Source: Prorocentrum cordatum (lineage: Eukaryota). Taken from it: a DNA stretch of 64,000 nucleotides. The position numbers and the translations under genes were made by a program. The stretch spans positions 62,001 through 126,000 of the forward strand of contig CAUYUJ010000248.1 in NCBI GenBank assembly GCA_963575745.1. Direction: 5' to 3'. Positions 18,024 through 36,619 of this stretch are shown in pieces; within the stretch, counting starts at the first letter, position 1, and each line of letters begins with the position of its first letter. Below the pieces are notes generated by a model, which did not search any database, was not told the origin of the DNA, and saw nothing but the letters and a program-made list of their open reading frames with translations.

Positions 18024-21000
18024 TCACCCACCTCTCCTCGTGGGCACCATCTCGGCGGGGAGCGGCCTGCCCGTCTGCGGGTGGCAGCCGCGGAGGATGC
18101 GGTCCCGCCTCTTCCTCCTGGAGTCCGCTCCTCCGTCGGCCCCTCGCCGCGGCAGTGGCCCAGGACAGGCGCGGCCCAAGCTGGCCCGCCTCACCGCCGA
18201 GTGGGCCCCACACACGCGGCAGACGACGTAGGGGCCGACGACCTCCACGACATGCGCCCTCCTGACGTCCTCCTCGGCGCTCGGCGGGCCCTCGAGGACA
18301 GGCACGTCCACCGCCTCCCTGCATCTCCGAGGCGACCTCGACCTCCGAGGTGACCTCCCTGCAGCACTGCCGTCTTCTCCATCATCTCCGCCTGCAGCTG
18401 CCGCCGCCACCGCCACGCCAGCGCAGGCCGCCGCCGCCCCCAAGGCGCCGCCAGCCCCACGCCCTGCAGCCGTGGACGCCTCCTGCCTTGCAGCCCTCTG
18501 CCTCCGCGCGCATGCGGCTCCCACTCTAGCCTCCAGCGAGCCCCACTCCTCGCTGGACTGGTGGCTCACCGCCTGCCAGGGAGGGGGTGCGCACGCGGAG
18601 GCCCACAGCTTCTTCCTCATCCTGGCCGAAGCTGCACGCTTGCCGCACCGCGTGCACACCAGCCAAGCTCCACACACCTCGACCTCGTGCCTCGTGAGGC
18701 TGACGTAGGGCCTCTGCTGCTTCCTCCTTCTGCTCGGCCCCGTCCTGGGCGGCACGTCGGGCCATCCTTCCTTCATCTCCTGGTACCACCAGCCGATGTT
18801 CTGGATGGCCCACTTCACCTTCTCATCCAGGCTCTCCAGGGCCAGCTCCCTGCCGTACCCGAAATCCTCCGCGGCCCCACGCTTGGCCAGGGCGTCCACC
18901 GCCTCATTGCCCCTGGCCACTTGCTGCGCCAAGCCCTCGAGCCTGCTGATGGCCGCTCTGGACCTGTGGGCCTTCACATGCATCACCCACTCTGGCTCGA
19001 GCCCCAAGTCCGCGATCTTGTGCCAGATCCTCCTCCAGACGTCCGCGTGCGGCCTTCCCCAGCTTAAGCACCACCTCGGCCCCCTCCTGATGCCGTCAAG
19101 GATGCCCTGGTGGTCCGTGAAGATCCTGCACGGTGGCAGCACCATCTCCAAAGTCTTCAGGAAAGCCCACATCTCGGCCCTCTTGACCGTCTTCTGCTCC
19201 TTAAATCGGCACGGCAGGGGGCCCCAGAGCTGCACCGTGGGGGCGCCTCCCGCGTCGATGGCCATCGCGGCCCACCCCGCCTGCGCCCAGCAGCTGGTGC
19301 CCAGCTTGGAGCCGTCGCACACGATGTCGCCCGACAGGAGGGCGTCCGTCCCCTGGAGGACGTCGCAGTGGAAGTCCGCCTCGTCGACCGACCTGTGGGC
19401 CCAGTCCGCCGAGGGGTCCCGCGCCAGCCCCCGCGTCCAGAGCAAACTGTCCTCCTGCTGCTCCGCCACGTGCTGCCACTCCGCCTGCGCTCGCCTCCTG
19501 ACCTCGAGCAGCGCGGGGCACCGAAAGAAACGATGATGCGGGGTGCCGACCGCCAGCCCACACCCGATGCAGATGTCGGTCGGCGTGATGCTGACCTCGG
19601 CGAGCCTGCTCATGGTCCAGGCCCCCGCCAGCACCACCTTCCGAGCCGCCCGCTTCGCATGCGCAGGGAAAGCCCGCGCGGCCAGCTGCGCCACCACTGG
19701 CGGGAGCCTCGGGCCTGGGGCTAGGCTCCCCATGCCTGGCTGCTGCGCCGTCCACTGCTCCCACAGCACCCTGCGCAGGTCAGCCCTGAGGAGCGCCCCA
19801 ACGTCAGTGGGGCACACCGCCGTGAGGTCCACCATCTCGCCGTCCTTTGTGCAGTAAACCGTCCACGACGGCCAGGTCCACCTCGCTCTCCTCAATGACA
19901 TGATGACCGCCCCCGCGGGTCCTTTGACCTTGGCCCACTGCGGGCTCATGCCCACCTCCTTCTGCTGCTGCCTCCACGCGTTGCTCATCTGCTCACTCAG
20001 GAGGACAGCCTCACTGCCAACACTCGACCTCCTGCTTATCTTGTCCTCCGCGATGTCCATTTGGCTGCCCGCCACCAGCAGCAGCTCGACCAGGCTCTCA
20101 ATGGTGCTGACACCGAGGTAGCCTTCCTCTTCCTGCATGCCTCCTTCTCTTCCTTCCCAGGGACATTGCGCCCTCCTCGACACCAGCAGCCTCCGCACCA
20201 CCTTCTGCAGCGCGACCTGCTCCTGCCTGTACTGCGAGATGACCTGGGCGCGGCAATCCTCGTCGAGCGCGTCGAGGTAGCGGAAGGCTGCACGCCTTCT
20301 CCAGCACGCCCTCCGCCACGCACGCCGACACACTTCTGCAGCAAGACACTCCGCCTCCTGAGCCTCCTCCTGGGGCAAGCTTCCACCTGTGACCTTGGAA
20401 ACCGCCTCCCTCCTGAGTTCACTGCGGAGGCCTGCCTGCGCTGCCTCCTGCAGGTACTCCGCGACCAGGGGAACACTCCACTGGCTCCAGTCCTCCTGCC
20501 GCTGGTGCTTCTCGCCCCTCAGATCCTTGATCCACAACGCCGTCCAGACACCGAGGGCATCCCTGAGCCTAGCACCCGCCTCAAGCCAGAAGGCCTGCTG
20601 GCGACAGGGTTGCACCTGCCCCTGGCCCCCTGCAACGAGCACTCTCAGGTCTCCTGCCACAGCCTGCTCCCAGACAGCCCTCGCCCACCTGACCACTGGC
20701 GCAAGTGTGGCCTCCTCGGTGGGGTCCTCCTTCAGCACCGCCAACTGCAAGGTGAGGCTCTTGGCTCCTCTCGAACCTGGAAGCAACTGGCCTGCCGCTC
20801 TCCTTACCTGCTGCAGCTGGTGGTCCGGCATGCCCAGGCACTTGCACCCATACATTACCGATCTCTTGAGGCCGCACTTGTACACCAAGCCAATCCCTCT
20901 AGTCACACCTTTGCCTGAGCCTTTCAGCCCCTTTAGCCTGGCGACCCTGTTCCTCATGCGCTTGAACCTCTTGCCACTCTTGTTCTTGGCCGCCGTCCCG

Positions 21001-24000
21001 TGGGCCACCACGTCGACGCCGAGGTAAGGGCAGGCCAGCACCAAAGGCAGCCCTCTCTCTGCCGCATCCTGCTTGAGAGCCTGTCTCAGCCACTTGGTGC
21101 TGGCCATGACCGCCCCCTTGCCCTGGTCGCCCAGGGAGAACTCGAGCCCCAAGGCCGCGAAGCCGTCCACGCTGTCGTCCACCACGGACGGGAAGCTGTC
21201 CACGATCCACTGCTGTGCCCCTCGCTGCTTGAGGCACAAATCGTCAACATACATCCTCCATTGCACCAGCGGGTACTCCACTACCAAACCGTCAATCGTG
21301 TCCTGTATGACCATCTTGAGGAAACCCACCGAGAACTTGCTGCCCGCGATGATCGTAGCCACTGTCCTCGTCTCCTCAGAGATGGCCTCCCCCGTGTTGA
21401 CTCTCCTCGCCATGGCAAAGTAGGAGCACACCACCGCCAGCACCCCCGTATTGAAGCCCATGGCCTTTCCCCGCTCCCACAGCACATGCAAGCTCACCCT
21501 CTCGAAAGCCTTGACCAGGTCGAGGATGGCCGTCACCGTCGCTAGGGTGCGCGGGTCCGAATCCTGCACCTCGTCGCCCTCGTTGGCGAGGAGAACCTCC
21601 CAAGCCGCGTCCTCCGCCGCCTTGCCGAAGGCCGTGCAATCCCAAGAACGCTGGTTCGCCTTGGCCCACTCGATCATGTAGGGCTCCCTCATGATCTCCC
21701 ACACCCTCACCAGGGTCGGGAGGAGGCCGATGGCACGATCAACCGCTACGCTCTTCGGGATCAGGAAGAAAATGACCGTGGCTGCATGCAGCGGCCAGAC
21801 GAGCGTGCGCTCCACCTCCCTCAGGATCTGCAGGAGCGTCCAGTGCGCTGCGTCCGACGCCCCTTGCAGCATGGCGGGGTGCCAGCGGTCCACTCCTTGT
21901 GCTGTCTTTTTCTTGAAGGTGCGCGCCACTTTCTTTAACTTGGCCAAGTCGTCCTCTGTGAACTCTGGCAACTCCTGACGCGGCTCCGTCTCCCACCGCC
22001 GCTCCTGCTCCTGCATCGGGTCGTTCACCTTCCAGACTGCGTTCCACTCCCCCAGGGCCGCTTCCGCTGCCCGCAACGGGTCTGCCGAAGCTTGGGGTGT
22101 ACTCGCTCTCCTCGGCCTCCAAATGTCCACTGGCTTGCTGATTCTGTGGAGTCCGCCCGCTGCTCCTTTCGCAGCCTCCTCCAGCTTCGCAGCCCACTGC
22201 CTCCTTCTTTCATTTATCAGGGCCTGGTCCTCCCGCCTGGACCGCTCCTTGGCCTCCAGGATCATCGCGTCCAGGCTGGCTTTCTGGTCAGCACCTCGCC
22301 AGCGCCCTTTCGCCAGCAGGGTACACCTTTCTTTCCATCGCTCCTTCTCCTCGCCGACCAGCTCACATCTGAACTCGTGGCTCACGCTTCTGAAGCGTTC
22401 CTCCAGATCACTAGCTATCATGCACCACTCCTGGCGCGCACGGGCACTGCCCGAAGACGACCTGAGCCTCTCGTAGTTCCCCGCCAGGGTCTGTAGCGTG
22501 CGCGCGAGCCACCGCCACCACAGAGCGTCTCCTTGCGGGGCTGGGTGGTTGCCGCCTCCTCTGAGGATCGCTCTCTCTTTCCAGCGCGGTGGGTCCGCAC
22601 GCCCTGCACACTCATGCCTGGGGTGCCACTCCAGCCCCCGCAGCGCGAAAGCCTCGCGCTCCAGCTTGCCAATGAAGGAAGCCCAGGTACTGGTCGCCAC
22701 CGTCACGTCGCTGAAAACCCCCACCTCGTCGTATACGGGCGGCTCAGGCGCGCACCCGATGCTGATTCCTTCCAACTTCTTCGGCGTGATGAGAATCCGC
22801 TCCTTCCTCTCCTGCGGCCTCAGGTCGAGCGTGATCCCCACCGGCTTGTGCGGCGCCGAAGGCCAAGACTCGTGGATGGCCACCTTCCTCACTTGGCCTG
22901 CCAACTCCCTCGAGACCACGAAATAGTATATTGTGGAACATCCACTCGCAGACCGACAGGTGCCGCTCGCGGCAGAGGGGGCCACCAGCGTCGCGCCAAT
23001 GAGCTTGATCGAATCCAAACCCGCCAGGACGGCAGGGGCATTCTGGAAGTCCCCGCACAACACCCACGGCATGTTGAGCTCGTGCAGCTTCCCCAACACG
23101 TGGTCCATCAGCCCCCTGTTCCGCCGCGACATCTGCTCGGCCGTCCACAGGTACACCGTCGCCACCACGATGCCGCCTCTACCTACTGCTACCCATGCCG
23201 CTGCAGCTCTTCCTGGGGATCCTCTGGGGGACCAGTCCCAACTGGTCTGCCCACACACGCACGCCATGCCAATCCTGTTCGGCACAGCGATTCCCACTCC
23301 TGCAGAGGTTCCTGGCTCACCCATGGGGCCCAGCGTGGGCACCGCCTCCGCTCCACCAACTTGGTAGCCTCTCTGACGCAAACTGTGGGTAACTCCAGCC
23401 CACTGGTCCTCTTTCAAGCGGTGCTCCTGGAAGGCGTAGAGGTGCTTCTGCGGCCCCACCTTCTTCTCCAGGAGCTTCTCTCTGATGGTTCCCCATCCCG
23501 AGCCGTTGAAAGTCCACACCATGACCACCTGCTTGTCGTCATTCGCCTTGTCAACCAGGAGCCTCATCATGCGGTGGTCGTGCAGGACCCTCGCGTATCC
23601 TCGCCACTGGCCTGAGTCTGCCCCCTGACTCCTCGCCGTCGCCGCAGGCTCAAGGCCGCGCAACGGCCCCGCGGGCGTGGACCTGGCCACACTTCCCGCC
23701 CTCAAAACGCCGTGCTCACTCCTCGCCAATGCCGCAGGCCGTGGGCCGCGCACAGGCCCCGCGGGCGTGGACTTGGCCACACTTCCCGCCCTCTGACTGG
23801 CTCCCGCTGCTCCGCGCCCGCCACGCTCATCATCCATCTGCACTTCGTCACGTCGGTGCCCTTCACTCTCGCTCTCCCCGAACTCCGCCTCCCACCCCTC
23901 AGGGTTCCAGCGGCTGTCGTCCCAAGGGAGGGTCTTCCCGCTCTGGCGCAACTGCACCTGCACCGCGCCTCTCCACGGCGACTCGGGGTAGCCGAGGTGG

Positions 24001-25226
24001 GTCCCATTGAGCACCAGGAACAAGAGGTCGCACGGCAACCTACCCTTTCCGCTGCCTCTTGGCCAACTGGCAGGAGTGCACCGACATGAGCACCTCTTGG
24101 TACCGCTTGAACAAGTGCGGGTTCTCCTCCTGGTCGGGCACTGGCTCCTGCCCGTTGAGCCACTTACGTTCAGCCTCGGTGACACCTGGTGGCAACTCCT
24201 CAGCCCCCGCGATGTCTCCCATGGATTCGTCTTCTGGTTCGCCCCCGTCGTCAGCCTGACCAGGCTGCTTAGCAGCACCAGTATTAGCAGCCTCAGCCTT
24301 TGCTGCCCCTTCCTTAGCCTTGGCCTCCAGGAGGGACTCGAGCGTGGCGAAATTGAGGCCGAGGGACTGGATGTCACTGCCGACGGACTTGGCGATGCAC
24401 TCCAACTGCACTCGGATGACGTCGAGGTTCGAGGCTGGGGCCGCTGGGCCCGCCACCGCAATCTTCCCCTGGAGCTCCAGGATCGTGGTCGCCAGCTCCT
24501 CCTTGCGCTTCGTTGCCTCGTCCCTCTCCTTCTTAACCTCGAGCAGCATCTGGTTGGCCTTCCTCTCGGTCTCGGCCAAGCGCTCAAACTGCTTGTCGAT
24601 CTGCCCCAGCTGGACCTGCGCCTCTCGCAGCTGGCCAGACAACGGCTTCGCCTGCGTGCGCTCCGCCTTGGCGTCCTGGATCTGCCTGTCGATGTCGGCC
24701 ACCGCCTGGTCGAGGTGAGGCGCTTCACCCCCCCAGTCCTTGGCACACTGGACCAGGACCTTCCTGCGTTCCTCCAGCTTTTGCAAAGCCGTAGGCGCCT
24801 TGGCCTCCGCGGCCGCACGCCAAGGCCTGGCAGCCACTGGTGGGAAGGAGGTGCGGAACCACTGCCCCAGCTCAGGCGTGGAAGTGACCTTGCCCTTGCC
24901 TTTGTACCCAGGGCGGACCGCGCCACAGGCACGGCAGGACGTACGCGTACTCCAGTTCGCACCTGTACCGCATGTCCCGCACGTCCACGAGTCACTCGGG
25001 CCCGCCCCCACCCAGGACGTGCCACCGCCTTTGCCTCCGACTGTCCACACCAGAGACGGCTTCTGCTTCTTGTTGCGCCGACCGCCACCCTTGACCTCCC
25101 AGTCGTTTTCGCCGCCCGCCATCGGTGCGCCCCACGCGCCGACACGAGCCCACAAGGGCACTGGAGGTTGCTGCAGCGGCAGCTCTCGTGAATGCACGGA
25201 GGCTGAAAGCCTCCCGAGCACACCAT
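18024..25226 (-). CDS. LINE ORF2: APE endonuclease, RT, RNase H and Cys-rich zinc fingers (frame is open from the ATG after the SL; conserved part starts about 23530)
   Basis: APE: WTFNGSG, FQEH, GDFQ, PHKPV; RT: FLIPK, RAIGLLP, LDLVKAFERV, YVDD, YLG; RNase H: CDGS, RAEMWA, FTDH, HVKAH, GNEAVDALAK. Confidence 0.93.
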   Translation of the reverse strand: MVCSGGFQPPCIHESCRCSNLQCPCGLVSARGAHRWRAAKTTGRSRVAVGATRSRSRLWCGQSEAKAVARPGWGRARVTRGRAGHAVQVRTGVRVRPAVPVARSALGTKARARSLPRLSWGSGSAPPSHQWLPGLGVRPRRPRRLRLCKSWRNAGRSWSSVPRTGGVKRLTSTRRWPTSTGRSRTPRRSARRRSRCLASCERRRSSWGRSTSSLSAWPRPRGRPTRCCSRLRRRGTRQRSARRSWRPRSWSSRGRLRWRAQRPQPRTSTSSECSWSASPSPSAVTSSPSASISPRSSPSWRPRLRKGQQRLRLLILVLLSSLVRLTTGANQKTNPWETSRGLRSCHQVSPRLNVSGSTGRSQCPTRRRTRTCSSGTKRCSCRCTPASWPRGSGKGRLPCDLLFLVLNGTHLGYPESPWRGAVQVQLRQSGKTLPWDDSRWNPEGWEAEFGESESEGHRRDEVQMDDERGGRGAAGASQRAGSVAKSTPAGPVRGPRPAALARSEHGVLRAGSVARSTPAGPLRGLEPAATARSQGADSGQWRGYARVLHDHRMMRLLVDKANDDKQVVMVWTFNGSGWGTIREKLLEKKVGPQKHLYAFQEHRLKEDQWAGVTHSLRQRGYQVGGAEAVPTLGPMGEPGTSAGVGIAVPNRIGMACVCGQTSWDWSPRGSPGRAAAAWVAVGRGGIVVATVYLWTAEQMSRRNRGLMDHVLGKLHELNMPWVLCGDFQNAPAVLAGLDSIKLIGATLVAPSAASGTCRSASGCSTIYYFVVSRELAGQVRKVAIHESWPSAPHKPVGITLDLRPQERKERILITPKKLEGISIGCAPEPPVYDEVGVFSDVTVATSTWASFIGKLEREAFALRGLEWHPRHECAGRADPPRWKERAILRGGGNHPAPQGDALWWRWLARTLQTLAGNYERLRSSSGSARARQEWCMIASDLEERFRSVSHEFRCELVGEEKERWKERCTLLAKGRWRGADQKASLDAMILEAKERSRREDQALINERRRQWAAKLEEAAKGAAGGLHRISKPVDIWRPRRASTPQASADPLRAAEAALGEWNAVWKVNDPMQEQERRWETEPRQELPEFTEDDLAKLKKVARTFKKKTAQGVDRWHPAMLQGASDAAHWTLLQILREVERTLVWPLHAATVIFFLIPKSVAVDRAIGLLPTLVRVWEIMREPYMIEWAKANQRSWDCTAFGKAAEDAAWEVLLANEGDEVQDSDPRTLATVTAILDLVKAFERVSLHVLWERGKAMGFNTGVLAVVCSYFAMARRVNTGEAISEETRTVATIIAGSKFSVGFLKMVIQDTIDGLVVEYPLVQWRMYVDDLCLKQRGAQQWIVDSFPSVVDDSVDGFAALGLEFSLGDQGKGAVMASTKWLRQALKQDAAERGLPLVLACPYLGVDVVAHGTAAKNKSGKRFKRMRNRVARLKGLKGSGKGVTRGIGLVYKCGLKRSVMYGCKCLGMPDHQLQQVRRAAGQLLPGSRGAKSLTLQLAVLKEDPTEEATLAPVVRWARAVWEQAVAGDLRVLVAGGQGQVQPCRQQAFWLEAGARLRDALGVWTALWIKDLRGEKHQRQEDWSQWSVPLVAEYLQEAAQAGLRSELRREAVSKVTGGSLPQEEAQEAECLAAEVCRRAWRRACWRRRAAFRYLDALDEDCRAQVISQYRQEQVALQKVVRRLLVSRRAQCPWEGREGGMQEEEGYLGVSTIESLVELLLVAGSQMDIAEDKISRRSSVGSEAVLLSEQMSNAWRQQQKEVGMSPQWAKVKGPAGAVIMSLRRARWTWPSWTVYCTKDGEMVDLTAVCPTDVGALLRADLRRVLWEQWTAQQPGMGSLAPGPRLPPVVAQLAARAFPAHAKRAARKVVLAGAWTMSRLAEVSITPTDICIGCGLAVGTPHHRFFRCPALLEVRRRAQAEWQHVAEQQEDSLLWTRGLARDPSADWAHRSVDEADFHCDVLQGTDALLSGDIVCDGSKLGTSCWAQAGWAAMAIDAGGAPTVQLWGPLPCRFKEQKTVKRAEMWAFLKTLEMVLPPCRIFTDHQGILDGIRRGPRWCLSWGRPHADVWRRIWHKIADLGLEPEWVMHVKAHRSRAAISRLEGLAQQVARGNEAVDALAKRGAAEDFGYGRELALESLDEKVKWAIQNIGWWYQEMKEGWPDVPPRTGPSRRRKQQRPYVSLTRHEVEVCGAWLVCTRCGKRAASARMRKKLWASACAPPPWQAVSHQSSEEWGSLEARVGAACARRQRAARQEASTAAGRGAGGALGAAAACAGVAVAAAAAGGDDGEDGSAAGRSPRRSRSPRRCREAVDVPVLEGPPSAEEDVRRAHVVEVVGPYVVCRVCGAHSAVRRASLGRACPGPLPRRGADGGADSRRKRRDRILRGCHPQTGRPLPAEMVPTRRGG
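24040..25122 (-). CDS. LINE ORF1: RanBP2-type zinc finger + coiled coil
   Basis: WTCGTCGTGANWSTRTSCRACG followed by long E/K/Q/A helical heptads. Confidence 0.85.
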   Translation of the reverse strand: MAGGENDWEVKGGGRRNKKQKPSLVWTVGGKGGGTSWVGAGPSDSWTCGTCGTGANWSTRTSCRACGAVRPGYKGKGKVTSTPELGQWFRTSFPPVAARPWRAAAEAKAPTALQKLEERRKVLVQCAKDWGGEAPHLDQAVADIDRQIQDAKAERTQAKPLSGQLREAQVQLGQIDKQFERLAETERKANQMLLEVKKERDEATKRKEELATTILELQGKIAVAGPAAPASNLDVIRVQLECIAKSVGSDIQSLGLNFATLESLLEAKAKEGAAKAEAANTGAAKQPGQADDGGEPEDESMGDIAGAEELPPGVTEAERKWLNGQEPVPDQEENPHLFKRYQEVLMSVHSCQLAKRQRKG

Positions 25227-25248
25227 CTTGAGCCAAAATGGCTACGGA
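25227..25248 (-). other. Dinoflagellate spliced-leader sequence (retroposed)
   Basis: Minus strand TCCGTAGCCATTTTGGCTCAAG matches the DinoSL consensus DCCGTAGCCATTTTGGCTCAAG and is followed directly by ATG. Confidence 0.97.
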
Positions 25249-30345: not shown

Positions 30346-31044
30346 GCGTCAGAATGATATACGGCAGAGACGTCTCCGGCGAACCGCCCAGCCCGCCCTA
30401 CTGAAACGTCTCGGGGTGCGACAGGGAGGAATTACTCATAAGGAGGAGGGATGGATGAAAAGGGATAGGGAGGAGGAGGAGGAGGAAGAGGAGGAGGAGG
30501 AGGAGGAGGAGGAGGACAAGGAGGAGGAGGAGGAGGAGGAGGAGGAGGAAGAGGAGGAGGGGGAGGAGGGGAAGGAGGGGCAGGATAAAGAGGAGGAGGA
30601 GGAGGAGAAGGAGGAGGAGGAGGAAACGGCGGAGGCAGAGGGCCCCCAGGGCGCGCGTGGCCAGCTGGAAGGGGGGGAGGTCCCCTCGGGATTCCAGGTC
30701 CTCCCGTTCACCTCGCACCTGGGGTATTCTCGGCTCTCCGCTCGGCACCCCCCACTCCCAGGGCACAGGCCGCACGCAGGGACGCTTGGAGGGGGACTTC
30801 TCTGCCCTGCCGGGCGGACGGAAGCGGCTACAGTGGGGTCGCGCGTCAAGAAGCCATTTGCTTTTCGTCAGCGTATCTTCGCTCCGCGCGCTGTGCTGTG
30901 ACTTCTCGCAGCCGTTGAAGAAGCTGCTGCGTTCAGGGTGCTCCGGGTTTCCCCTCAGGTGCACCTCTCGCGCGGGATTTCAAGGTTGGGTTTCTTGCGA
31001 GGGTTTTTTGCGGCCGCGCCCGCACTGTAGGGACAGGGGGGATA

Positions 31045-31210: not shown

Positions 31211-31911
31211 GTTGCTGCCGCTGGTCACCCCCAGGGGCGCCAGGGCCAGGATGACCGCGCTGCGCGGTCCGGGCCGGTGCGGCTGCCCTCCTCCAGGAGG
31301 GACGGCGCGGGGGCGCGAGGGCCCGAAGACAGCTCTGGGTCGCGCATCGCGAGGCGCGACGCGCGAAGTTGGGCGGCCTCAGAAGCGGGTGCAGAGTGCG
31401 GCTTTCCACCGACGGGGGCGCCCGTCCCACGGCAGCTGGAGGCCTTGCGCTACGCCGTCTCGCCGTGGGGCTGTGAGATTTCCCGCCGAGAGCGCCCCAG
31501 GGCGGCCAGGGACTCTGCCCTCGGATGTGTCACCGCGGGGACCCCTCGCCGCCTGTCTCCCTTCGCTCGCACACTTCTGCCTCGGCCGTGCGCAGCGCAC
31601 GGGCTTGCCGAGGACAGAGGCCAACCGCGTGACCATGGGGCCAGGCTCCCAGCCGCCCTGGGACTGGTGCCCGCGTCGCGGCACCCCACCCCACCCGCGT
31701 CGCGGCGGGACGGGGTGCGCAGGCCCCAATCGCGGCGGATGGGTGATTGGGGGTCGGTGCTCCCCCCTCACCTGCCAGTTCCCCACGGTCGTCCTGTCTG
31801 AGAGGGAGACCAGGCCTTCTTGTGCGCCAGGTTGGCGGGCACGCTCGCAGCCATCCCTCCCTCGACTGCCACGCCTGCCGCCGCCCTGGCCTTGGCCCCC
31901 ATCGGGCGGCG

Positions 31912-32552
31912 ATGCCTGTCTCGCAGGCGGACGCCCTCCGCATCCACGCCGCGATCCACGGCGGCAAGGACTCCGTGAGGCTCGCCTCTGGCGACACGCT
32001 GCCCGTGACGAAGGCGTCCTCGAGATGCAGGTGCGTCCAGGCGGAGGGCATCGATGCGCGTGAGCAAAACACAGGCAAGCCGTCGAAGTGGGCGGACATG
32101 GCCAAGGCGGGCTCCAAGATCACCTGGTTCCTGGGCGGCTCGCCGCAGCAGTGGGGCCGCATCGTGGACGGTGCCGTGGACCAGCTCGGCAAGCAGATCT
32201 TGGGGGGTGGAGCAGAGGCCAAGGCGAAGGCCGCGGCCAAGGCGGCCGCGGCGCCGCCTGCGAAAGCGAAGGCCGATGCGCTTTCCGAGCCGCCGCCGCA
32301 GGGTGCCGCCAAGGCGAAGCTGGCCGCCAAGGCGACCTTGAAAGCTTCGAAGGAGCCCGTGGCCCCTAAGGCCAAGCGGGCTGCCAACGCGCCCCAGCCC
32401 GCTGACGGGCAGCCTCCGGCCAAGAGGGCAAAGTGTGCGCTGGCCGCCCCCGCCGCCTCGCCGCCGCCCGGGACCGCCGCCGTTGCTTCGGCAGAGGACC
32501 CGCTGGGGCTCGCTGCCCTGTTCTGCGGGAAAGGTTACGGCGCTGTGTGGAG
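31912..32552 (+). CDS. Exon 1 of a UDG-like/ADP-ribosyltransferase fusion gene: small N-terminal domain + Ala/Lys/Pro linker
   Basis: MPVSQADALR...EQNTGKPSKWADMAKAGSKITWF..WGRIVDG; ends EDPLGLAALFCGKGYGAVW; phase-2 donors available after 32546 (GT) or 32552 (AG|GC). Confidence 0.65.
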
Positions 32553-32747
32553 GCCCTGGCTCGGCTACGGTCGGACCAGAGTAAAAGATCGAGGTCGGCT
32601 CGGGGAGGGTACCCTAGTGTTCTTCGTTTTTGTTGCGCGTTGTTGTGCATCCTGGGGGATGGTACTTACTTTCAAAAGTCTTTCCGTTTGGCAGGCGGAT
32701 GGTCTCATGTTCTTGAAGGATGTTAGTAAATCCTTGGTCTGGCTGTA

Positions 32748-32920
32748 CGCGTAAGAGTGACCCTGCGCAGAGTGACCTTTGGTGCGGGGCCACTGGGGTA
32801 TGTACCCCGATCGTCGAGCGCAATGCGATGGCAGCGGCTTGCACGCCTGGATTTAGCCCCCCCGCGTCTGCCCGAAACTGCGCACCAAAGGTCAATCCTG
32901 CCCAGAGTCACTCTTACGTG
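32748..32920. mobile_element. MITE within the intron
   Basis: About 39-bp imperfect TIRs (c(g/a)cgtaagagtgac...tgacctttggtgcg) flanked by TA at 32746-47 and 32921-22. Confidence 0.8.
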
Positions 32921-33614
32921 TAGGCGACTTGCGTGCGGGAATCGCACGCGGATCGGCTACATAGGCTGAAGGTCGCCCGCAGTGGTCCTTGGGCGCGGGG
33001 GTGGTCTCGCTTCGCGCGCCGCGGCTTGCGCCACAGAGCTGCCCTTCTCCAGCAGGGGCGGCGCGAGGGCGCGAAGATGTCCGCGCGTCGAGCATTGCTG
33101 GACGCGGCGCGCGAAGTTAGGTGACCTAGAGATCGCAGTGTGCGGGAATCGAGCGCGGCGGTCGCGCGGCCGACGTGCCACCGATGCGGTCGGCAGTTGT
33201 CTTGATCGGCGCCACGGTCGGGAACTTCGGGGCACCGCGTCGCTCCGCCAGTTCTGGCCCACCACGCCTCGGCGCGACACGCTATCGGCATCCCGTTCCC
33301 TGGGCGTCGACGCCCCGGGCTTCTTGGAAGCCAGTCGCGCCGCGGAGCGGAGCAAGACGCTGTCCGCTCGCAGGGCACAGCGTGTCGCTGGGGCCGCCGC
33401 CGCGGCGCGCTGCCAAGCAAGAGTTCCAGACCGTGGGCGACCTGGACATCGCAGTGTGCGGGAATCGCGCGCGGATCGGTCGCGCGGTCGACGTGCCATC
33501 GATGCGGTCGGCAGTGTCCCCGATCGGCGCTATTGCTGCCTGCGACAGATCAGGGGCACCGATCCGATCGTTTGATCAGGGGCACTGGTCGGAGATGGTC
33601 ACCTGGGCACTCAG

Positions 33615-35124
33615 GTGGGAGCCCATACTGCGACCCGTGATCGACAAGTTGCCGAACGCTGCGGGCTTCATCGGACCAGGACGCCCTAAGCAGATCGTGC
33701 CCATTCGGGAACTGACGCTGCAAGCGTTGAAGCCGAACCCGCCATCTGGATGGCGCGTGATTTCCTTGGGGCAGTCCCCGTACCCTCGGGTCGAGTCTGC
33801 CACTGGCATTGCACATTTTGACAACTCCATCTCTTCGTGGGATGACGGCCGTTTTGGCGCTGTGGTTTCCATGCGCAACATCATAAAGGCAGCGGCCATG
33901 CATAAGTACGGCATACCCAAGGCTACCCCCAGCGCTGAGTTCCGCAAGTTGTTAAGGGATAGGGCTGTGGTGAATCCTGCTGAATGGTTCCAGGCAATGC
34001 TCACGCAGGGGGTGCTCTTCATGAATGCCGCATGCACGCTGCTCCCTCCCGAGGACAAGTCCGTCAGGGCTGGCAGCGTTGTGGAAGAGCACAGAAAGTT
34101 CTGGGCTCCGGTCATCGAGGCAATCCTGGGCGCGATCTTGGCAGAGTGCAGACTGCACGGCAAAGGCCTTGTGTTCGCCTGGTGGGGTGGGGAGAGCCTG
34201 AAGCTAAAAAAGGAGTTCGCCAAGACCATTTTCGCGGCGTACCGAGACGTTCGGATGGAGCACGTGGAGCACAAAAACCCTGCGGCCATGCAGGACGCTT
34301 TCTTGGATGAGCCCAATATTTTCGGGGCCATCAATGACAAGCTGAAGGCGCTGCAGCTTGGACTGCCCATCGACTGGCTACCCAGCGATGGCTGGCAACA
34401 CCACCTCTGCACGGATGCGCGCGCCAGCGCGATGGGCGAATTCATCACCGAGACGAAGGAACTGCACCGAATGTACCTGGAGCGCTTGAGGGATGGCCTG
34501 GACTCGGGCAACGAAGAGCTGGCAGACATCACGGGCGTGGAGTCGTCGCCGCTTGTGCCCCTCGCAGAAGCACTTCGGGCCCTCAAGCTTGCGGACGCCG
34601 CTCGGCAGTCAACCACCAAGGCCCAGGCTATGAACCGGGGCGCTCTCGGTATCGAGGAGGCGGCCGCGGTCCACATGTACACCACCAACCACCTCTACAG
34701 ACAGTTGAACGCAGCGCTGCGCTCTGCGCAGCGGTGCTCCATCCAGCAATACTTCCTGTACCTGCGAATCCTTCTGGCGGCCTTGTCAAAGCTGCCGAGC
34801 GCGGACAAGGAGCTGTACAGGGGGGTGCCCCTGGACCTGAGCTCGCAGTACGCGGTCGGCTCGGAGGTCACCTGGTGGGCGGTCTCAAGCTGCACGCCAG
34901 ATCTGAAGGTGGCCTGCAGCTTCGGAGCGTCGCAAAAGGCCTGCACACTGTTCAGGATCAAGGCACAGAGGAGTGTCGGCATCAGGGAGCTGTCGCAGTA
35001 CAAGGGCGAGGAGGAGTTTATTCTCGCTCCTGGCACGCAGCTCCGCGTCGACAAGGTGCAGAGAGCCGGCGGCAGGGTAGAGATTTTCCTGCGCGAGCTG
35101 GATCGGCCACGGCGTGTGAGGTAG
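33615..35124 (+). CDS. Exon 2: uracil-DNA-glycosylase-superfamily domain + R-S-E ADP-ribosyltransferase domain
   Basis: UDG-like: VISLGQSPYP..SATGIAHF, QGVLFMNAACT, H..FW, LVFAWWG, HKNPAA; ART: EAAAVHMYT..LYRQLNAALR, LYRG, WAVSSCT, GEEEFIL; phase-2 acceptor ctcag|G. Confidence 0.88.
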
Positions 35125-36619
35125 TGATCGGCATTTTCCCCGCTGGTGGTAGCAGCTGCCTGTCGAATGGCACAGGGTCGAACGGACAGCTGCGACCTCC
35201 AGCGTCAGGCCCTGCTCGCAAATCTGGCGGACAGGCAGATCTTGGGGAACGAGCAGAGAAATGGACATAAAACTCAGAGGTCCGTGCGGATCTCTCGGAT
35301 CGGCGCTGGATCCTTCTCCCTGGCGCGCGGAGCGCGCCAGGGGCGGCGCCGGCGCCGCCAGGGTGCCCCAGCGCCGACCCGAGAAATCCACGTGGACCTC
35401 TGATTTTTGTGTTTATGCCATTGTTTACTTTTCACCGGGGCCACCCGGCGCGAGAGGCCGCGGGGCCTTCGAGCGAGCCCGCGAACGGCAGCCCCCTCGC
35501 GAGGCGGAGGCCACGACTCTGGGGCCGCGAAGCGCGAGAGGCCACGGGGCCGCAGGGGGAGCCCCCGATCGGCAACCCCCTCGCGAGGAGGAGGAGGAGG
35601 AGGAGGAGGAGGAGGAGGAGGAGGAGGAGGAGGAGGAAGAGGAGGAGGAGGAGGAGGAGGAGGAGGAGGAGGGGAGCAGGAGGAGGAGAGGAGGAGGAGG
35701 AGGAGGGGGAGCAGGGGTCCTGGAGCCAATGCCCGCATGGGAGCGTGCGGCTCCCCTGCCGGGGGCGTATCGCCGATCCGCCGGCGATGCACTGCCGATG
35801 CCAGCTCAATGTGTCCCTCCCCCATACGGTCAGGAAGTTTGTTTTAACGTGTCGCGTGTCATCAATCAGTCAATCGAGCTTCGGCCGTTGTCAAAATTTC
35901 GTAAGCGGGGGGGTACCGGTTGAACCGAGATGTCGTTGTTATTTCCAAGGGGTGGTTACCTTTGAAGACTAGGTTTATGTTGTCGTTGTTTTTCCTGCGC
36001 GATCGGTTTCACAAGAGTGTGCTGGGAGTGATCGTGTCGCGACGCCTGTTCCGGCCCACCACGCTTCGGCGCGACACGCCGTCCACATCCCCGTTCCCGA
36101 GCGTCCACGGCCCAGGCCTCGTCCAGCTGCACGCCCCGCCGAGTCAGGGCGGCGTGCTACCCGCTCGCAGGGCACGGCGTGTCGCAAGGGCCGTCGCCGC
36201 GACGCGCGAAGCAAAAGTTCCTGGCCGTAGAGCTCACCCTCAGCTTGTTTGGTGAGGGCGGCGGCGACTTGGTGCCCCACCAGCTTCCAGACCCTGGATT
36301 CGTTCTCCAACGCTTTCTTATCCAGGGTGGGAAGGGAGGGAGGGGGGGGGAGGCAGAATGTGGAACATGGGAGGATGGGCAGGAGGGCATGGAGGAATGG
36401 ATGGGGGAGGAGGAGACGGAGGAGGAGGAGGAGGAGGAGGAGGAGGAGGAGGAGGAGGAGGAAGAGGAGGAGGAGGAGGAGGAGGAGGAGGAGGGGGGGG
36501 ACAAGTGAGGTGCGCTCGCGTCAACATCTGACATCCTACCCCTCCCTCCCATCCCTTACCATGGCGCTGATTTTCTCTATCCGCGGACGCGTGTCGTAGC
36601 GGACCTGTGGCTCCGCGCG

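What the first reader, a model, noticed from the sequence alone, without database searches (positions are those of the whole stretch)
31912..35124. Intron-containing gene fusing a uracil-DNA-glycosylase-like domain to an R-S-E ADP-ribosyltransferase: candidate modified-base sensor/effector system in a dinoflagellate
Seen: one spliced ORF of about 715 aa with a UDG-fold domain followed by an ART that retains LYRG / SSCT / ExE catalytic motifs. The UDG motifs are altered: GQSPY replaces the family-1 UNG GQDPY (catalytic Asp lost) and HKNPAA replaces HPSP. Established: ExE-type R-S-E ARTs are typically toxin-like, often Arg-specific; dinoflagellate DNA has abundant 5-hydroxymethyluracil. Inference: the glycosylase fold may act as a reader of U, 5hmU or foreign DNA that switches on the ART, as in an antiviral/abortive defence or a DNA-damage signal. 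I recall a similar UDG-ART architecture in uncharacterised actinobacterial/myxobacterial proteins (unverified), which would imply horizontal transfer followed by intron gain.
Basis: partly seen in the sequence, partly recalled or inferred. Interest (0 to 1): 0.9.

Follow-up and report, generated by a model that had tools for sequence, protein, structure and literature searches.

The report
Glycosylase-like reader fused to ADP-ribosyltransferase
An expressed, spliced dinoflagellate gene joins a uracil-DNA-glycosylase-like domain that lacks the usual catalytic residue to an intact-looking ADP-ribosyltransferase; many soil bacteria share this uncharacterised design, which may mark proteins on DNA where unusual bases are sensed.

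Summary
Window 31912-35124 (+) is one two-exon gene: exon 1 31912-32546, GT..AG intron 32547-33614, exon 2 33615-35124. It encodes 714 aa, and the junction is present in RNA contigs of 4 of 4 runs laid.

The protein has four parts: a new ~97-aa N-terminal "X" domain, a disordered Lys/Ala-rich linker, a family-1-UNG-like fold, and an R-S-ExE ADP-ribosyltransferase (ART).
- **UNG-like domain:** it reads GQSPY and HKNPAA, and the catalytic Asp is absent in 83 of 83 relatives. The uracil-pocket Asn is invariant, and this is the best-conserved domain.
- **ART:** Arg, Ser and both Glu of ExE are invariant in 83 of 83.

Hundreds of actinobacterial proteins, plus a planctomycete and a myxobacterial one, are 46-49% identical. 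A macrodomain gene lies next to, or is fused with, them in 78 of 80 loci.

All named eukaryotic hosts are dinoflagellates or euglenozoans, the lineages with 5hmU or base J.

Other members carry WWE or SAP domains. The X domain recurs on PARP catalytic domains, a PBZ-kinase, and an independent UNG-ART fusion in Mastigamoeba.

Best reading (inferred): a base-reading pseudo-glycosylase that directs arginine mono-ADP-ribosylation on DNA-associated proteins. I found no support for antiviral defence. The function is untested, and the family appears in print only in passing.

The parts
31849..31911 (+). 5' UTR. Transcript contigs begin at 31849, at an AG (31849-31850) that may be a spliced-leader acceptor.
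   Evidence: table 8: contigs of X1 and X10 start at 31849. The X10 loose end 'GAAACAGGCTCA' followed by the genomic AG gives GGCTCAAG, the 3' end of the dinoflagellate spliced leader as I recall it. The leader sequence is recalled, the upstream 6 letters do not fit it, and this is a hint only.
31912..32202 (+). Exon 1, residues 1-97: 'X' domain, a small alpha+beta domain with no Pfam family. Invariant residues include D7, H12, H16, E51, Q52, T71 and W72.
   Evidence: pLDDT 91-98. Alignment A2. 131 representatives with E<=0.001 in 1.84 billion proteins. No Pfam hit. No convincing PDB fold match.
32203..32496 (+). Exon 1, residues 98-195: disordered Lys/Ala/Pro-rich linker containing PAKRAK, a likely nuclear-localisation region (inference).
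   Evidence: pLDDT 29-45. Mean pairwise identity 28% among 25 dinoflagellate forms.
32497..32546 (+). End of exon 1: start of the UDG-like domain (DPLGLAALFCGKGYGAV, conserved in the bacterial proteins too).
   Evidence: Alignments A1 and A3.
32547..33614 (+). Intron, 1068 nt, GT..AG, phase 2 within codon V212. It contains a direct repeat (33120-33212 and 33436-33530) and an inverted repeat (32746-32770 / 32898-32922).
   Evidence: Joint 32546->33615 in 4 of 4 runs. Repeats.
33615..34383 (+). Exon 2, residues 212-468: body of the family-1-UNG-like domain. Landmarks: GQSPY 33769-33783 (Ser266 in place of the catalytic Asp), uracil-pocket Asn349 34024-34026, HKNPAA 34270-34287 (His431 kept, Leu wedge replaced by Ala-Ala), C-terminal PIDWLP.
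   Evidence: fold. (motif columns).
34384..34659 (+). Residues 469-560: conserved, mostly helical connector between the UDG-like and ART domains.
   Evidence: Helices 479-504 and 538-549 with pLDDT mostly above 85. Mean identity 52% among dinoflagellate forms.
34660..35124 (+). Residues 561-714 plus stop: R-S-ExE ADP-ribosyltransferase domain. R614 at 34819-34821, S636-S637-C-T639 at 34885-34896, E677-E678-E679 at 35008-35016, stop at 35122-35124.
   Evidence: Pfam ART E=7e-13. PDB Tre1 6dre_B E=4e-6. Foldseek. R614, S637, T639, E677 and E679 invariant in 83 of 83.
35125..35500 (+). 3' UTR. Transcript contigs skip 35257-35419 (163 nt), which coincides with a hairpin element (arms 35265-35309 / 35368-35412).
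   Evidence: table 5: 3 of 4 runs, ends AG..CC, not canonical. pair I1. Whether the element is spliced out or absent from the DNA of the transcribed strains is not known.

Best explanation
The gene encodes a DNA-associated, probably nuclear, mono-ADP-ribosyltransferase whose targeting module is a pseudo-glycosylase. The UNG-derived domain keeps the pocket that holds a flipped-out uracil-type base but lacks the water-activating Asp. It therefore most likely reads and holds a base (uracil, or a 5-substituted uracil such as 5hmU) rather than excising it efficiently. Through a conserved helical connector it is coupled to an ExE-type, arginine-directed ART. That ART modifies itself or neighbouring DNA-bound proteins and so leaves a local ADP-ribose mark. 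Macro, WWE or PBZ-type modules can then read or erase the mark.

In logic this is a base-lesion or base-modification counterpart of PARP1-3, built from an unrelated (R-S-E) ART clade. The family probably arose in bacteria as a two-gene macrodomain + UDG-ART module and moved into dinoflagellates and euglenozoans. Core dinoflagellates then added the X domain, a basic linker and an intron, and changed Asn to Ser.

Shown here: the gene model, expression, the folds, motif states, conservation, the domain partners and the distribution. Inferred: DNA or base binding, loss of excision, arginine targets, coupling between the domains, and nuclear location.
For: 1. **Folds and motifs.**
2. **Asp is absent across the family.** The motif-A position is Asn in 56 and Ser in 27 of 83 sequences, and never Asp. 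All 25 dinoflagellate forms have Ser. The motif-B His is replaced in 6 of those 25 (S, A, W, N). The pocket Asn349, F280, N433-P-A-A and R299 are invariant or nearly so.
3. **The UDG-like domain is the most conserved part.** Mean pairwise identity is 66% among 25 dinoflagellate forms, against ART 62%, X 52% and linker 28%. It is therefore functional, not decaying.
4. **The ART catalytic residues are invariant.** R614, S637, T639, E677 and E679 are kept in 83 of 83. The nearest solved ARTs are the arginine-specific Vis, Tre1, ExoS/T and ART2.2.
5. **The domain partners are ADP-ribose and DNA modules.**
   - A macrodomain is adjacent or fused in 78 of 80 bacterial loci.
   - WWE is N-terminal in P0268 and P0277, and SAP in P0275.
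   - The X domain is fused to PARP catalytic domains in 3 of the 54 X-domain proteins scanned, to a kinase with a PBZ finger in 1, and to VWA domains in 11.
6. **An independent fusion builds the same design.** Mastigamoeba P0219 is X + canonical UNG (GQDPY, HPSP) + ART. Its UNG part is 64% identical to a plain Mastigamoeba SAP-UNG and its ART part 57% to another Mastigamoeba ART.
7. **Host range.** The named eukaryotic hosts are 10 dinoflagellates and 5 euglenozoans. Passages in PMC11071213 describe these lineages as the ones with appreciable 5hmU or base J. PMC10161547 reports base-J biosynthesis genes in Diplonema papillatum.
8. **The only bench data.** In passages of PMC13689562, over-expressing a Streptomyces macro-UDG-ART ('UDG-L') during cytosine base editing shifted outcomes towards C-to-T transitions, as if uracil were shielded. 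This was seen in only 2 of 5 replicates, and the authors call it not robust.
Against: - No binding, excision or ART assay exists for any member.
- Asn at this position is catalytic in the MUG/TDG and SMUG1 families, and some UDG families lack a polar residue there altogether (established knowledge, recalled). The bacterial Asn forms, and perhaps the Ser forms, may therefore still excise bases.
- Tyr/Phe268 corresponds to the residue that excludes 5-substituted uracils in UNG (recalled). That argues against 5hmU and for plain uracil as the ligand.
- Kinetoplastids carry base J but did not appear in either list of the best 120 hits.
- The bacterial hosts are not known to carry 5hmU.
- The intercalating Leu of UNG is Ala-Ala in 83 of 83, so duplex base-flipping may work differently or not occur.
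- The stacking-Phe position is ambiguous by one residue in the alignment (H279 or F280).
- Arginine specificity is inferred from ExE alone.
- I could not inspect model coordinates, so the geometry between pocket and ART site is unknown.
Confidence: 0.45

Rival explanations
1. It is a working DNA glycosylase coupled to an ART. The Asn or Ser variant still excises a base slowly, or with a different specificity (for example 5hmU, or mismatched U or T, as MUG and SMUG1 do with Asn). The ART then signals the abasic site it has made, or regulates the enzyme by auto-modification.
For: The Mastigamoeba fusion P0219 carries a fully canonical UNG (GQDPY, HPSP) joined to an ART, so excision plus ADP-ribosylation is a viable combination. 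The pocket Asn349 and (in 76 of 83) His431 are kept. UDG families with Asn at motif A are active (recalled). Adding UDG-L to Streptomyces strain A modestly raised C-to-G transversions, as extra excision would (PMC13689562, passages).
Against: Asp is absent in 83 of 83, and His is lost in 6 of 25 dinoflagellate forms without loss of overall conservation. The Leu wedge is absent in 83 of 83. In family-1 UNG, Asp-to-Asn mutants are nearly inactive (recalled). In strain B, UDG-L over-expression acted in the opposite direction, giving more transitions.
Confidence: 0.22
2. It is a sensor-effector immune or toxin module. The dead UDG detects foreign U- or 5hmU-containing DNA, or acts as a decoy for viral UDG inhibitors. 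It then unleashes a toxic ART, which the macrodomain restrains as an antitoxin in bacteria.
For: The ART + macrodomain pairing resembles DarT-DarG logic: the macro protein has a weak PADLOC DarG hit, E=0.0065, and the pair is linked in 78 of 80 loci. The module sits in non-syntenic contexts: the largest other neighbour cluster occurs in only 7 of 80 loci. The nearest solved ARTs are toxins or effectors. PMC13689562 reports the gene as strain-specific.
Against: There is no PADLOC family for the UDG-ART protein. Of 55 recurring-neighbour representatives scanned, 54 had Pfam hits, and these were transporters, PKS, hydrolases and regulators, with no defence, integrase or phage genes. Half of the bacterial forms are single fused macro-UDG-ART polypeptides (39 same-strand cases), which is unusual for a toxin-antitoxin pair. 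In dinoflagellates the gene is a conserved single orthologue group with nuclear-type additions and no macrodomain partner within the 64-kb window. Viral contigs held only plain UNGs.
Confidence: 0.13
3. It is a DNA-modifying ART. The UDG-like domain flips or exposes a base, and the ART ADP-ribosylates DNA itself (a base, as DarT or pierisin/Scabin do, or a strand end). The macrodomain reverses the modification.
For: Macrodomains that reverse DNA ADP-ribosylation exist (DarG; recalled). R-S-E ARTs that modify guanine exist (pierisin, ScARP and Scabin in Streptomyces; recalled). The UDG fold is a DNA-base-handling module.
Against: ExE is invariant in 83 of 83, whereas the guanine-specific R-S-E ARTs carry QxE (recalled). 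No DarT-like or pierisin-like hit appeared in Pfam, PDB or Foldseek. A base held in the UDG pocket would not be reachable by a separate ART site (inference).
Confidence: 0.1

Closest known systems
Unconventional family-1 UNG of Nitratifractor salsuginis (PDB 5x3g/5x3h) and family-1 UNG in general
   Same: It is the best sequence and fold match to residues ~200-468. It shares GQxPYPR, ESA.G.A, QGVLLLN, F..WG, H..P and the C-terminal PIDW.
   Different: The catalytic Asp is replaced by Ser (Asn in bacteria). The Leu wedge is replaced by Ala-Ala. There is an insertion after the GIA.F segment. The domain is fused to an ART. It scores far below the NCBIfam UNG cut-offs (31.6 bits against 162).
Arginine-specific R-S-ExE ARTs (Pfam ART PF01129: ART2.2; Tre1 of Serratia; Vis; ExoS/T; C3-like)
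   Same: Same fold, and the R / S-x-S-T / ExE triad is present.
   Different: It has no signal peptide, secretion or PAAR module. It is fused to a DNA-repair-type fold, and its partners are macro, WWE and SAP domains rather than immunity or translocation parts. Its substrate is unknown.
PARP1-3 (DNA-break-sensing ADP-ribosyltransferases)
   Same: What it works like, not what it is a member of (inferred). A DNA-lesion-sensing module is coupled through a helical region to an ART, within a macro/WWE/PBZ reader-eraser setting. The X domain is shared with amoebozoan PARP catalytic-domain proteins.
   Different: The ART belongs to a different clade (R-S-E, not H-Y-E). The sensor is a glycosylase fold, not zinc fingers or WGR. 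Mono- rather than poly-ADP-ribosylation is expected. There is no Pfam PARP hit.
Streptomyces 'UDG-L' (macro-UDG-ART) mentioned in PMC13689562 (J Bacteriol 2026)
   Same: Same family architecture as the bacterial relatives found here: an N-terminal macro-type domain (annotated there as leucine-aminopeptidase or O-acetyl-ADP-ribose deacetylase), then UDG, then NAD:arginine ART.
   Different: It is bacterial and intron-less, has Asn at motif A, and has a macrodomain in place of the X domain. It was only over-expressed in base-editing tests and its biochemistry is uncharacterised.
DarT-DarG
   Same: An ART is genetically paired with a macrodomain. The subject matter is DNA pyrimidines.
   Different: DarT is a different ART family that acts on thymidine in single-stranded DNA (recalled). 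Here the ART is ExE type, there is no DarT hit, and half of the bacterial forms are single polypeptides.
Mastigamoeba balamuthi X-UNG-ART (P0219)
   Same: Same three-part order, X domain, UNG fold, R-S-ExE ART.
   Different: Its UNG is canonical (GQDPY, HPSP). Its linker is low-complexity rather than a conserved helical connector. Its parts are closest to other Mastigamoeba genes, so the fusion is independent.

Membership tests
Family-1 uracil-DNA glycosylase (UNG) | UDG alpha/beta fold | tested here: met
   Foldseek 5x3h_B E=3.2e-10, TM(target) 0.71-0.73; also HSV, M. tuberculosis and Micrococcus UNGs. phmmer to 5x3g E=7.6e-8.
Family-1 uracil-DNA glycosylase (UNG) | Motif A GQDPY with the water-activating Asp | tested here: not met
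   GQSPY in the window (33769-33783). Asp in 0 of 83 relatives (56 Asn, 27 Ser).
Family-1 uracil-DNA glycosylase (UNG) | Motif B HPSPLS with the catalytic His and the intercalating Leu | tested here: not met
   HKNPAA. His431 is present in the window (76 of 83 overall; lost in 6 of 25 dinoflagellate forms). The Leu position is Ala-Ala in 83 of 83.
Family-1 uracil-DNA glycosylase (UNG) | Uracil-specificity Asn in the GVLLLN strand, and Tyr/Phe of motif A | tested here: met
   N349 in 83 of 83. Y268 in 72 and F in 11 of 83.
Family-1 uracil-DNA glycosylase (UNG) | Score above the curated family thresholds | tested here: not met
   NCBIfam UNG equivalogs score 31.6 bits against a cut-off of 162. 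No Pfam UDG hit at E<=1.
Family-1 uracil-DNA glycosylase (UNG) | Uracil excision activity | not testable with these tools
   Needs an enzyme assay.
R-S-E (cholera-toxin-like) arginine ADP-ribosyltransferases, Pfam ART PF01129 | Pfam model above the gathering score | tested here: met
   48.9 bits against a cut-off of 22.3, E=7e-13.
R-S-E (cholera-toxin-like) arginine ADP-ribosyltransferases, Pfam ART PF01129 | Catalytic Arg, Ser-x-Ser/Thr and ExE | tested here: met
   R614, S636/S637/T639 and E677-E-E679. R, S637, T639 and both Glu are invariant in 83 of 83.
R-S-E (cholera-toxin-like) arginine ADP-ribosyltransferases, Pfam ART PF01129 | ART fold | tested here: met
   Foldseek Tre1 6dre_B TM 0.75, rmsd 3.3; ART2.2 1gxy_A TM 0.65, rmsd 3.0.
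R-S-E (cholera-toxin-like) arginine ADP-ribosyltransferases, Pfam ART PF01129 | NAD+-dependent transfer to protein arginine | not testable with these tools
   Inferred from ExE only.
PARP family (H-Y-E ARTs with WGR or zinc-finger sensors) | PARP catalytic domain | tested here: not met
   No Pfam PARP hit on the window protein. The ART is of R-S-E type.
PARP family (H-Y-E ARTs with WGR or zinc-finger sensors) | WGR-like fold for the N-terminal domain (suggested by its WGRIVDG motif) | tested here: inconclusive
   Model pLDDT 91. Foldseek best E=0.54. VIA-align against 48,161 chains gave best Z 3.9, none at 5 or above, and no PARP entry in the 50 rows shown.
Known anti-phage defence systems (PADLOC-DB 2.0) | Match to a defence-system protein model | tested here: not met
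   0 families for P0003 and for bacterial P0051. The macro partner has only a weak DarG hit, E=0.0065.
DarT-DarG-type ART + macrodomain pair | ART gene linked to a macrodomain gene | tested here: not met
   Met for the bacterial relatives (78 of 80 loci). Not met for the window gene: it has no macrodomain, and tblastn with the bacterial macro protein against the 64-kb window gave only E=1.5.

The most novel reading that the evidence does not exclude
The family is a reader-writer system for uracil-type bases. A catalytically disarmed UNG recognises uracil, 5hmU or base-J-related sites in genomic DNA and converts that recognition into arginine ADP-ribosylation of chromatin proteins. This would be a PARP-like signalling axis invented independently from a toxin-type ART. 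Among eukaryotes it is retained in the two lineages (dinoflagellates and euglenozoans) whose DNA carries hydroxymethyluracil-derived bases. There it could protect, or mark the boundaries of, modified DNA. The X domain would be a new DNA- or ADP-ribose-binding module shared with amoebozoan PARPs.
Probability: 0.25. Interest if true: 0.9.

Novelty: new variant of a known kind. Interest (0 to 1): 0.72.

Why it matters
Dinoflagellate chromatin is one of the least understood in eukaryotes. It has few nucleosomes and massive 5hmU, and no reader of 5hmU is known. PMC11071213 (passages) explicitly asks what the mechanistic role of 5hmU is.

A conserved, expressed protein that couples a base-pocket domain to an ADP-ribosyl writer is a concrete, testable candidate for such a reader. 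Its eukaryotic relatives seen here are confined to the 5hmU and base-J lineages.

More generally, the family would be a second, independent route to DNA-state-dependent ADP-ribosylation besides PARPs. It covers hundreds of Streptomyces and other bacterial genes plus protists. It would also be a further example, after UdgX, of a UDG-fold protein put to a use other than ordinary base excision.

The X domain is a further uncharacterised module that recurs with PARP, PBZ and UNG contexts.

If the protein turns out to be an ordinary glycosylase with an appended ART, it is still a new base-excision-repair-signalling fusion.

Tried and rejected
**My first intron guess was wrong.** I placed the donor after AAAG at 32533 and the acceptor at 33553, giving 730 aa. 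P0003 and the RNA joints replaced this.

**WGR-like N-terminal domain.**
- No Pfam hit.
- A profile search against PDB found only a spurious zinc-finger helix match, E=2.8.
- No fold match.
- The ESM Atlas gave only scores of 0.84-0.85, below the useful range.

**Whole-genome search.** No genome is held for this window, so paralogues and a macrodomain partner elsewhere in the genome could not be sought. Within the window there is one copy and no macrodomain (E=1.5 only).

**Window neighbours.** Of 38 long ORFs scanned, only a 2405-aa ORF gave relevant hits, and those were weak RT and RNase H matches. Nothing relates to ADP-ribose or DNA repair.

**Defence context.** PADLOC found nothing for the UDG-ART protein. 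Pfam on 55 of 73 recurring-neighbour representatives found nothing defence-like. The 18 left out were short ORFs or ORFs antisense to the module.

**Viral contigs.** 23 loci matched, all over UDG residues only (query residues 200-467, 23-32% identity), with no ART part. The scan used two peptide patterns only.

**Earlier findings of this scan.** Nothing found.

**Literature.**
- Six searches found no description of a UDG-ART fusion other than the passing mention in PMC13689562.
- In PMC11377751 the search terms occurred only in the reference list.
- The library lacks most subscription journals, so earlier comparative-genomics papers may mention it.
- The Nitratifractor UNG paper itself was not in the library.

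**Not done.**
- No coverage argument is made from uncovered parts of the stretch.

Full report
**1. What is there**

The + strand between 31912 and 35124 holds two long ORFs in different frames. A 714-aa protein already in the public collection, P0003, is 100% identical to the second ORF's product. It is 97.7% identical over the 217 residues of the tblastn match covering the first ORF (exon 1 and a few aligned codons beyond), with 3 substitutions inside exon 1.

P0003 reads ...GKGYGAV|WEPILRPV... across the join. That fixes exon 1 as 31912-32546, a GT..AG intron as 32547-33614 (1068 nt, phase 2) and exon 2 as 33615-35124.

Contigs of 4 of 4 public runs from 4 studies carry exactly this joint (32546->33615). 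Two of the runs are on record as polyA RNA-seq; the other two are only guessed to be RNA.

Transcript contigs start at 31849, at an AG. One loose end ends in GGCTCA, which together with that AG resembles the end of the dinoflagellate spliced leader as I recall it. This is a hint only.

A member of P0003's own 90% cluster is named as a Prorocentrum cordatum / Polarella glacialis protein. Close homologues come from Symbiodinium natans, Effrenium voratum, Amphidinium, Yihiella, Biecheleria, Gymnodinium, Polykrikos and Noctiluca. The dinoflagellate origin therefore holds.

**2. Anatomy**

An AlphaFold2 model built on 83 aligned relatives (mean pLDDT 82.4) shows four ordered parts and one disordered part:

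| Residues | Part | Evidence |
|---|---|---|
| 1-97 | Compact alpha+beta domain, here called X | pLDDT 93-98 |
| 98-195 | Lys/Ala/Pro-rich disordered linker containing PAKRAK | pLDDT about 30-45 |
| 196-468 | UDG fold | Best Foldseek hits: Nitratifractor salsuginis UNG 5x3h/5x3g, E=3e-10, TM 0.71-0.73, then HSV, M. tuberculosis and Micrococcus UNGs |
| 469-560 | Conserved helical connector | |
| 561-714 | R-S-E ART | Pfam PF01129 E=7e-13; Tre1 TM 0.75; also Vis, XopAI, C3, ExoS/T, ART2.2 |

Pfam's UDG model does not hit. NCBIfam UNG equivalogs hit far below their cut-offs. phmmer finds PDB 5x3g at E=7.6e-8.

An alignment with a canonical UNG (the UNG part of Mastigamoeba P0219) shows the family-1 landmarks in order: GQxPY, QGVLLLN, F..WG, H..P and the C-terminal PIDW.

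**3. State of the catalytic motifs**

I aligned 83 of the 120 hits listed. I dropped 10 fragments and 27 further bacterial rows to keep the alignment small. In those 83 sequences:

- The motif-A Asp is never present. It is Asn in 56 and Ser in 27.
- All 25 dinoflagellate long forms have Ser. Two short, unnamed forms also have Ser.
- The motif-B His is present in 76. It is replaced in 6 of the 25 dinoflagellate forms (S, A, W, N) and in the Noctiluca-type P0040 (F).
- The position of the intercalating Leu is Ala-Ala in all 83.
- By contrast the pocket Asn349, F280, R299 and N433-P-A-A are invariant or nearly so. Tyr/Phe268 is always aromatic.
- In the ART, R614, S637, T639, E677 and E679 are invariant in 83 of 83.

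The UDG-like domain is the most conserved part of the protein. Mean pairwise identity among the 25 dinoflagellate forms is 66%, against 62% for the ART, 52% for both X and the connector, and 28% for the linker.

So the glycosylase-like domain is under strong selection even though residues that family-1 catalysis needs are gone. The roles of those residues in UNG are established knowledge that I recall; they come from no call.

**4. Relatives and their context**

Hundreds of actinobacterial proteins of about 520-540 aa align at 46-49% identity over ~95% of exon 2. They come from Streptomyces, Kitasatospora, Nonomuraea, Micromonospora, Dactylosporangium, Streptosporangium and others, and there is also a Gemmataceae and a Myxococcota entry.

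I examined the 80 best genome loci of 426 confirmed, mostly Streptomyces and therefore not independent.
- A macrodomain gene (Pfam Macro E=1.4e-12) lies immediately upstream in 78 of them.
- It is on the opposite strand in 39 and on the same strand in 39.
- Many of the same-strand cases form one ORF of 760-1190 aa, a macro-UDG-ART fusion.
- Such fused proteins are also in the database with Macro and ART annotations.
- Of the two loci without a hit, L025 has only 70 nt upstream and L040 (Rhizohabitans) has none within 8 kb.

Nothing else is conserved around the bacterial pair.
- The largest other neighbour cluster occurs in 7 of 80 loci.
- I scanned 55 representatives of recurring neighbours; 54 had Pfam hits. 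These were transporters, PKS, P450, hydrolases and regulators, not defence or mobile-element genes.
- PADLOC has no model matching the UDG-ART protein.

**5. Eukaryotic distribution and other architectures**

Named eukaryotic hosts in the two lists of the best 120 hits and their clusters:

- **Ten dinoflagellates**, listed in section 1.
- **Five euglenozoans:** Diplonema ambulator, D. japonicum, D. papillatum (on a 235-kb genomic contig), Sulcionema specki and the euglenid Entosiphon sulcatum.

No other eukaryotic group appeared, and no kinetoplastid did.

Passages of PMC11071213 describe kinetoplastids/Euglenozoa as the one other lineage besides dinoflagellates with appreciable 5hmU, as the base-J precursor. 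PMC10161547 reports a full base-J pathway in D. papillatum.

The apparent absence from kinetoplastids and the presence in ordinary bacteria weaken it.

The quick maximum-likelihood trees carry SH-aLRT support only and are unrooted.
- The 25 Ser-type dinoflagellate forms are one group (support 99).
- With four diplonemid, three Noctiluca-type and four unnamed sequences they form a 36-row group, separated from the bacterial rows at support 100.
- Entosiphon and the SAP-bearing P0275 fall outside that group.

Transfer between bacteria and eukaryotes is therefore clear. The direction (bacteria to eukaryotes) is inferred from breadth of distribution and from the eukaryote-specific additions.

Other N-terminal partners within the family are WWE (P0268, P0277) and SAP (P0275).

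**6. The X domain**

It has no Pfam family and no convincing solved-structure match. Foldseek's best E was 0.54, and VIA-align's best Z was 3.9 over 48,161 chains. My WGR idea, prompted by the motif WGRIVDG, is not supported.

An exhaustive phmmer search of 1.84 billion representatives found 131 proteins at E<=0.001. I scanned 54 of them with Pfam:

- 3 carry a PARP catalytic domain (named hosts Balamuthia mandrillaris and Sappinia pedata).
- 1 carries a protein kinase plus a PBZ finger.
- 11 carry VWA domains, some with a beta-propeller.
- 1 is Mastigamoeba balamuthi P0219.
- The rest have no Pfam family, including stand-alone forms of ~90-110 aa and forms with two X-domain matches.
- P0141 and P0152 have 10 and 15 matched stretches, but these are short and partial, and their only Pfam hits have no significant stretch.

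P0219 is X + canonical UNG (GQDPY, HPSP) + R-S-ExE ART. Its UNG part is 64% identical to a plain SAP-UNG of the same amoeba, and its ART part 57% identical to another Mastigamoeba ART. The same three-part design was therefore assembled independently.

Independent recurrence of X + UNG fold + ART, together with macro, WWE, SAP, PARP and PBZ as associates, places the family in DNA-linked ADP-ribose signalling.

**7. Mechanism proposed**

- **Best reading (0.45).** A pseudo-glycosylase reader of uracil-type bases directs an arginine-specific mono-ART to DNA-bound proteins or to itself. Erasers and readers are supplied in cis or in trans. The logic is that of PARP1-3, but the ART clade is different.
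- **The only experimental hint.** In PMC13689562, over-expressing a Streptomyces macro-UDG-ART shifted base-editing outcomes towards transitions in one strain, as uracil shielding would. It modestly raised transversions in another strain, as excision would. The first effect was seen in 2 of 5 replicates (passages).
- **Rivals.** A still-active glycosylase with a signalling ART (0.22); a sensor-toxin immune module (0.13); a DNA-modifying ART (0.10).
Asn at motif A is compatible with catalysis in other UDG families, and the aromatic residue at 268 should exclude 5-substituted uracils if the pocket works as in UNG. Both points are recalled knowledge. No biochemical data exist.

**8. Novelty**

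The proteins are in databases under generic names: 'ADP-ribosyltransferase domain-containing protein', 'uracil-DNA glycosylase', 'ung'. Six full-text searches found one paper that mentions a bacterial member in passing, and none that analyses the fusion, its eukaryotic members or the X domain. The library omits most subscription journals.

I rate it a new variant of a known kind: ADP-ribosylation writers with a DNA-state sensor. Interest is 0.72. The gene is real, expressed, conserved and mechanistically suggestive, and it offers a testable candidate reader for dinoflagellate DNA modification. Its function, however, is wholly inferred.

Noticed in passing
window 18027-25241 (-): An uninterrupted 2405-aa ORF with weak reverse-transcriptase (E=2.9e-4) and RNase H (E=6.6e-4) Pfam hits. 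It is probably a large retroelement.
   Followed up: partly
window 9930-13889 (+): A 1320-aa open frame with no Pfam family at E<=0.001. Whether it is a gene is not known.
   Followed up: no
window 35257-35419: Transcript contigs of 3 of 4 runs skip 163 nt of the 3' UTR, with non-canonical ends (AG..CC). The skipped piece is a hairpin element (arms 35265-35309 / 35368-35412, 84% complementary). Many other contigs match it, since depth there rises to 356-861. It is either a MITE-like insertion absent from the transcribed strains or an unusual excision.
   Followed up: partly
window 33120-33212 and 33436-33530; 32746-32770 / 32898-32922: The intron holds a two-copy direct repeat (83-90% identity, 316-318 nt apart) and a 25-nt inverted repeat. 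A 429-nt contig of run X1 matches 33239-33281, so part of the intron is repeated elsewhere.
   Followed up: partly
window 30459-30600 and 35590-35700: Long simple-codon runs flank the gene, read as poly-Arg/Lys, poly-Glu or poly-Gly depending on frame. These are low-complexity intergenic repeats.
   Followed up: no
proteins P0145, P0163, P0176, P0201, P0220, P0194 and others: The X domain is a widespread family of ~90 aa with no Pfam model. It occurs alone, as two matches in some proteins (for example P0139), and fused to PARP catalytic domains, a PBZ-kinase and VWA/propeller proteins. It deserves its own description.
   Followed up: partly
protein P0219 (Mastigamoeba balamuthi): An independent X + canonical UNG + ART fusion. 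Its motif-B loop reads HPSPNAGNAF, so it also lacks the usual Leu.
   Followed up: partly
protein P0269 (unnamed, on a 2.8-Mb contig): A family member with Ala at the motif-A position (GQAPYPR). It groups with the eukaryote-type clade.
   Followed up: no
loci L058, L069 (Streptomyces): An RNase H-domain gene lies just downstream of the macro/UDG-ART pair in 2 of 80 loci.
   Followed up: no
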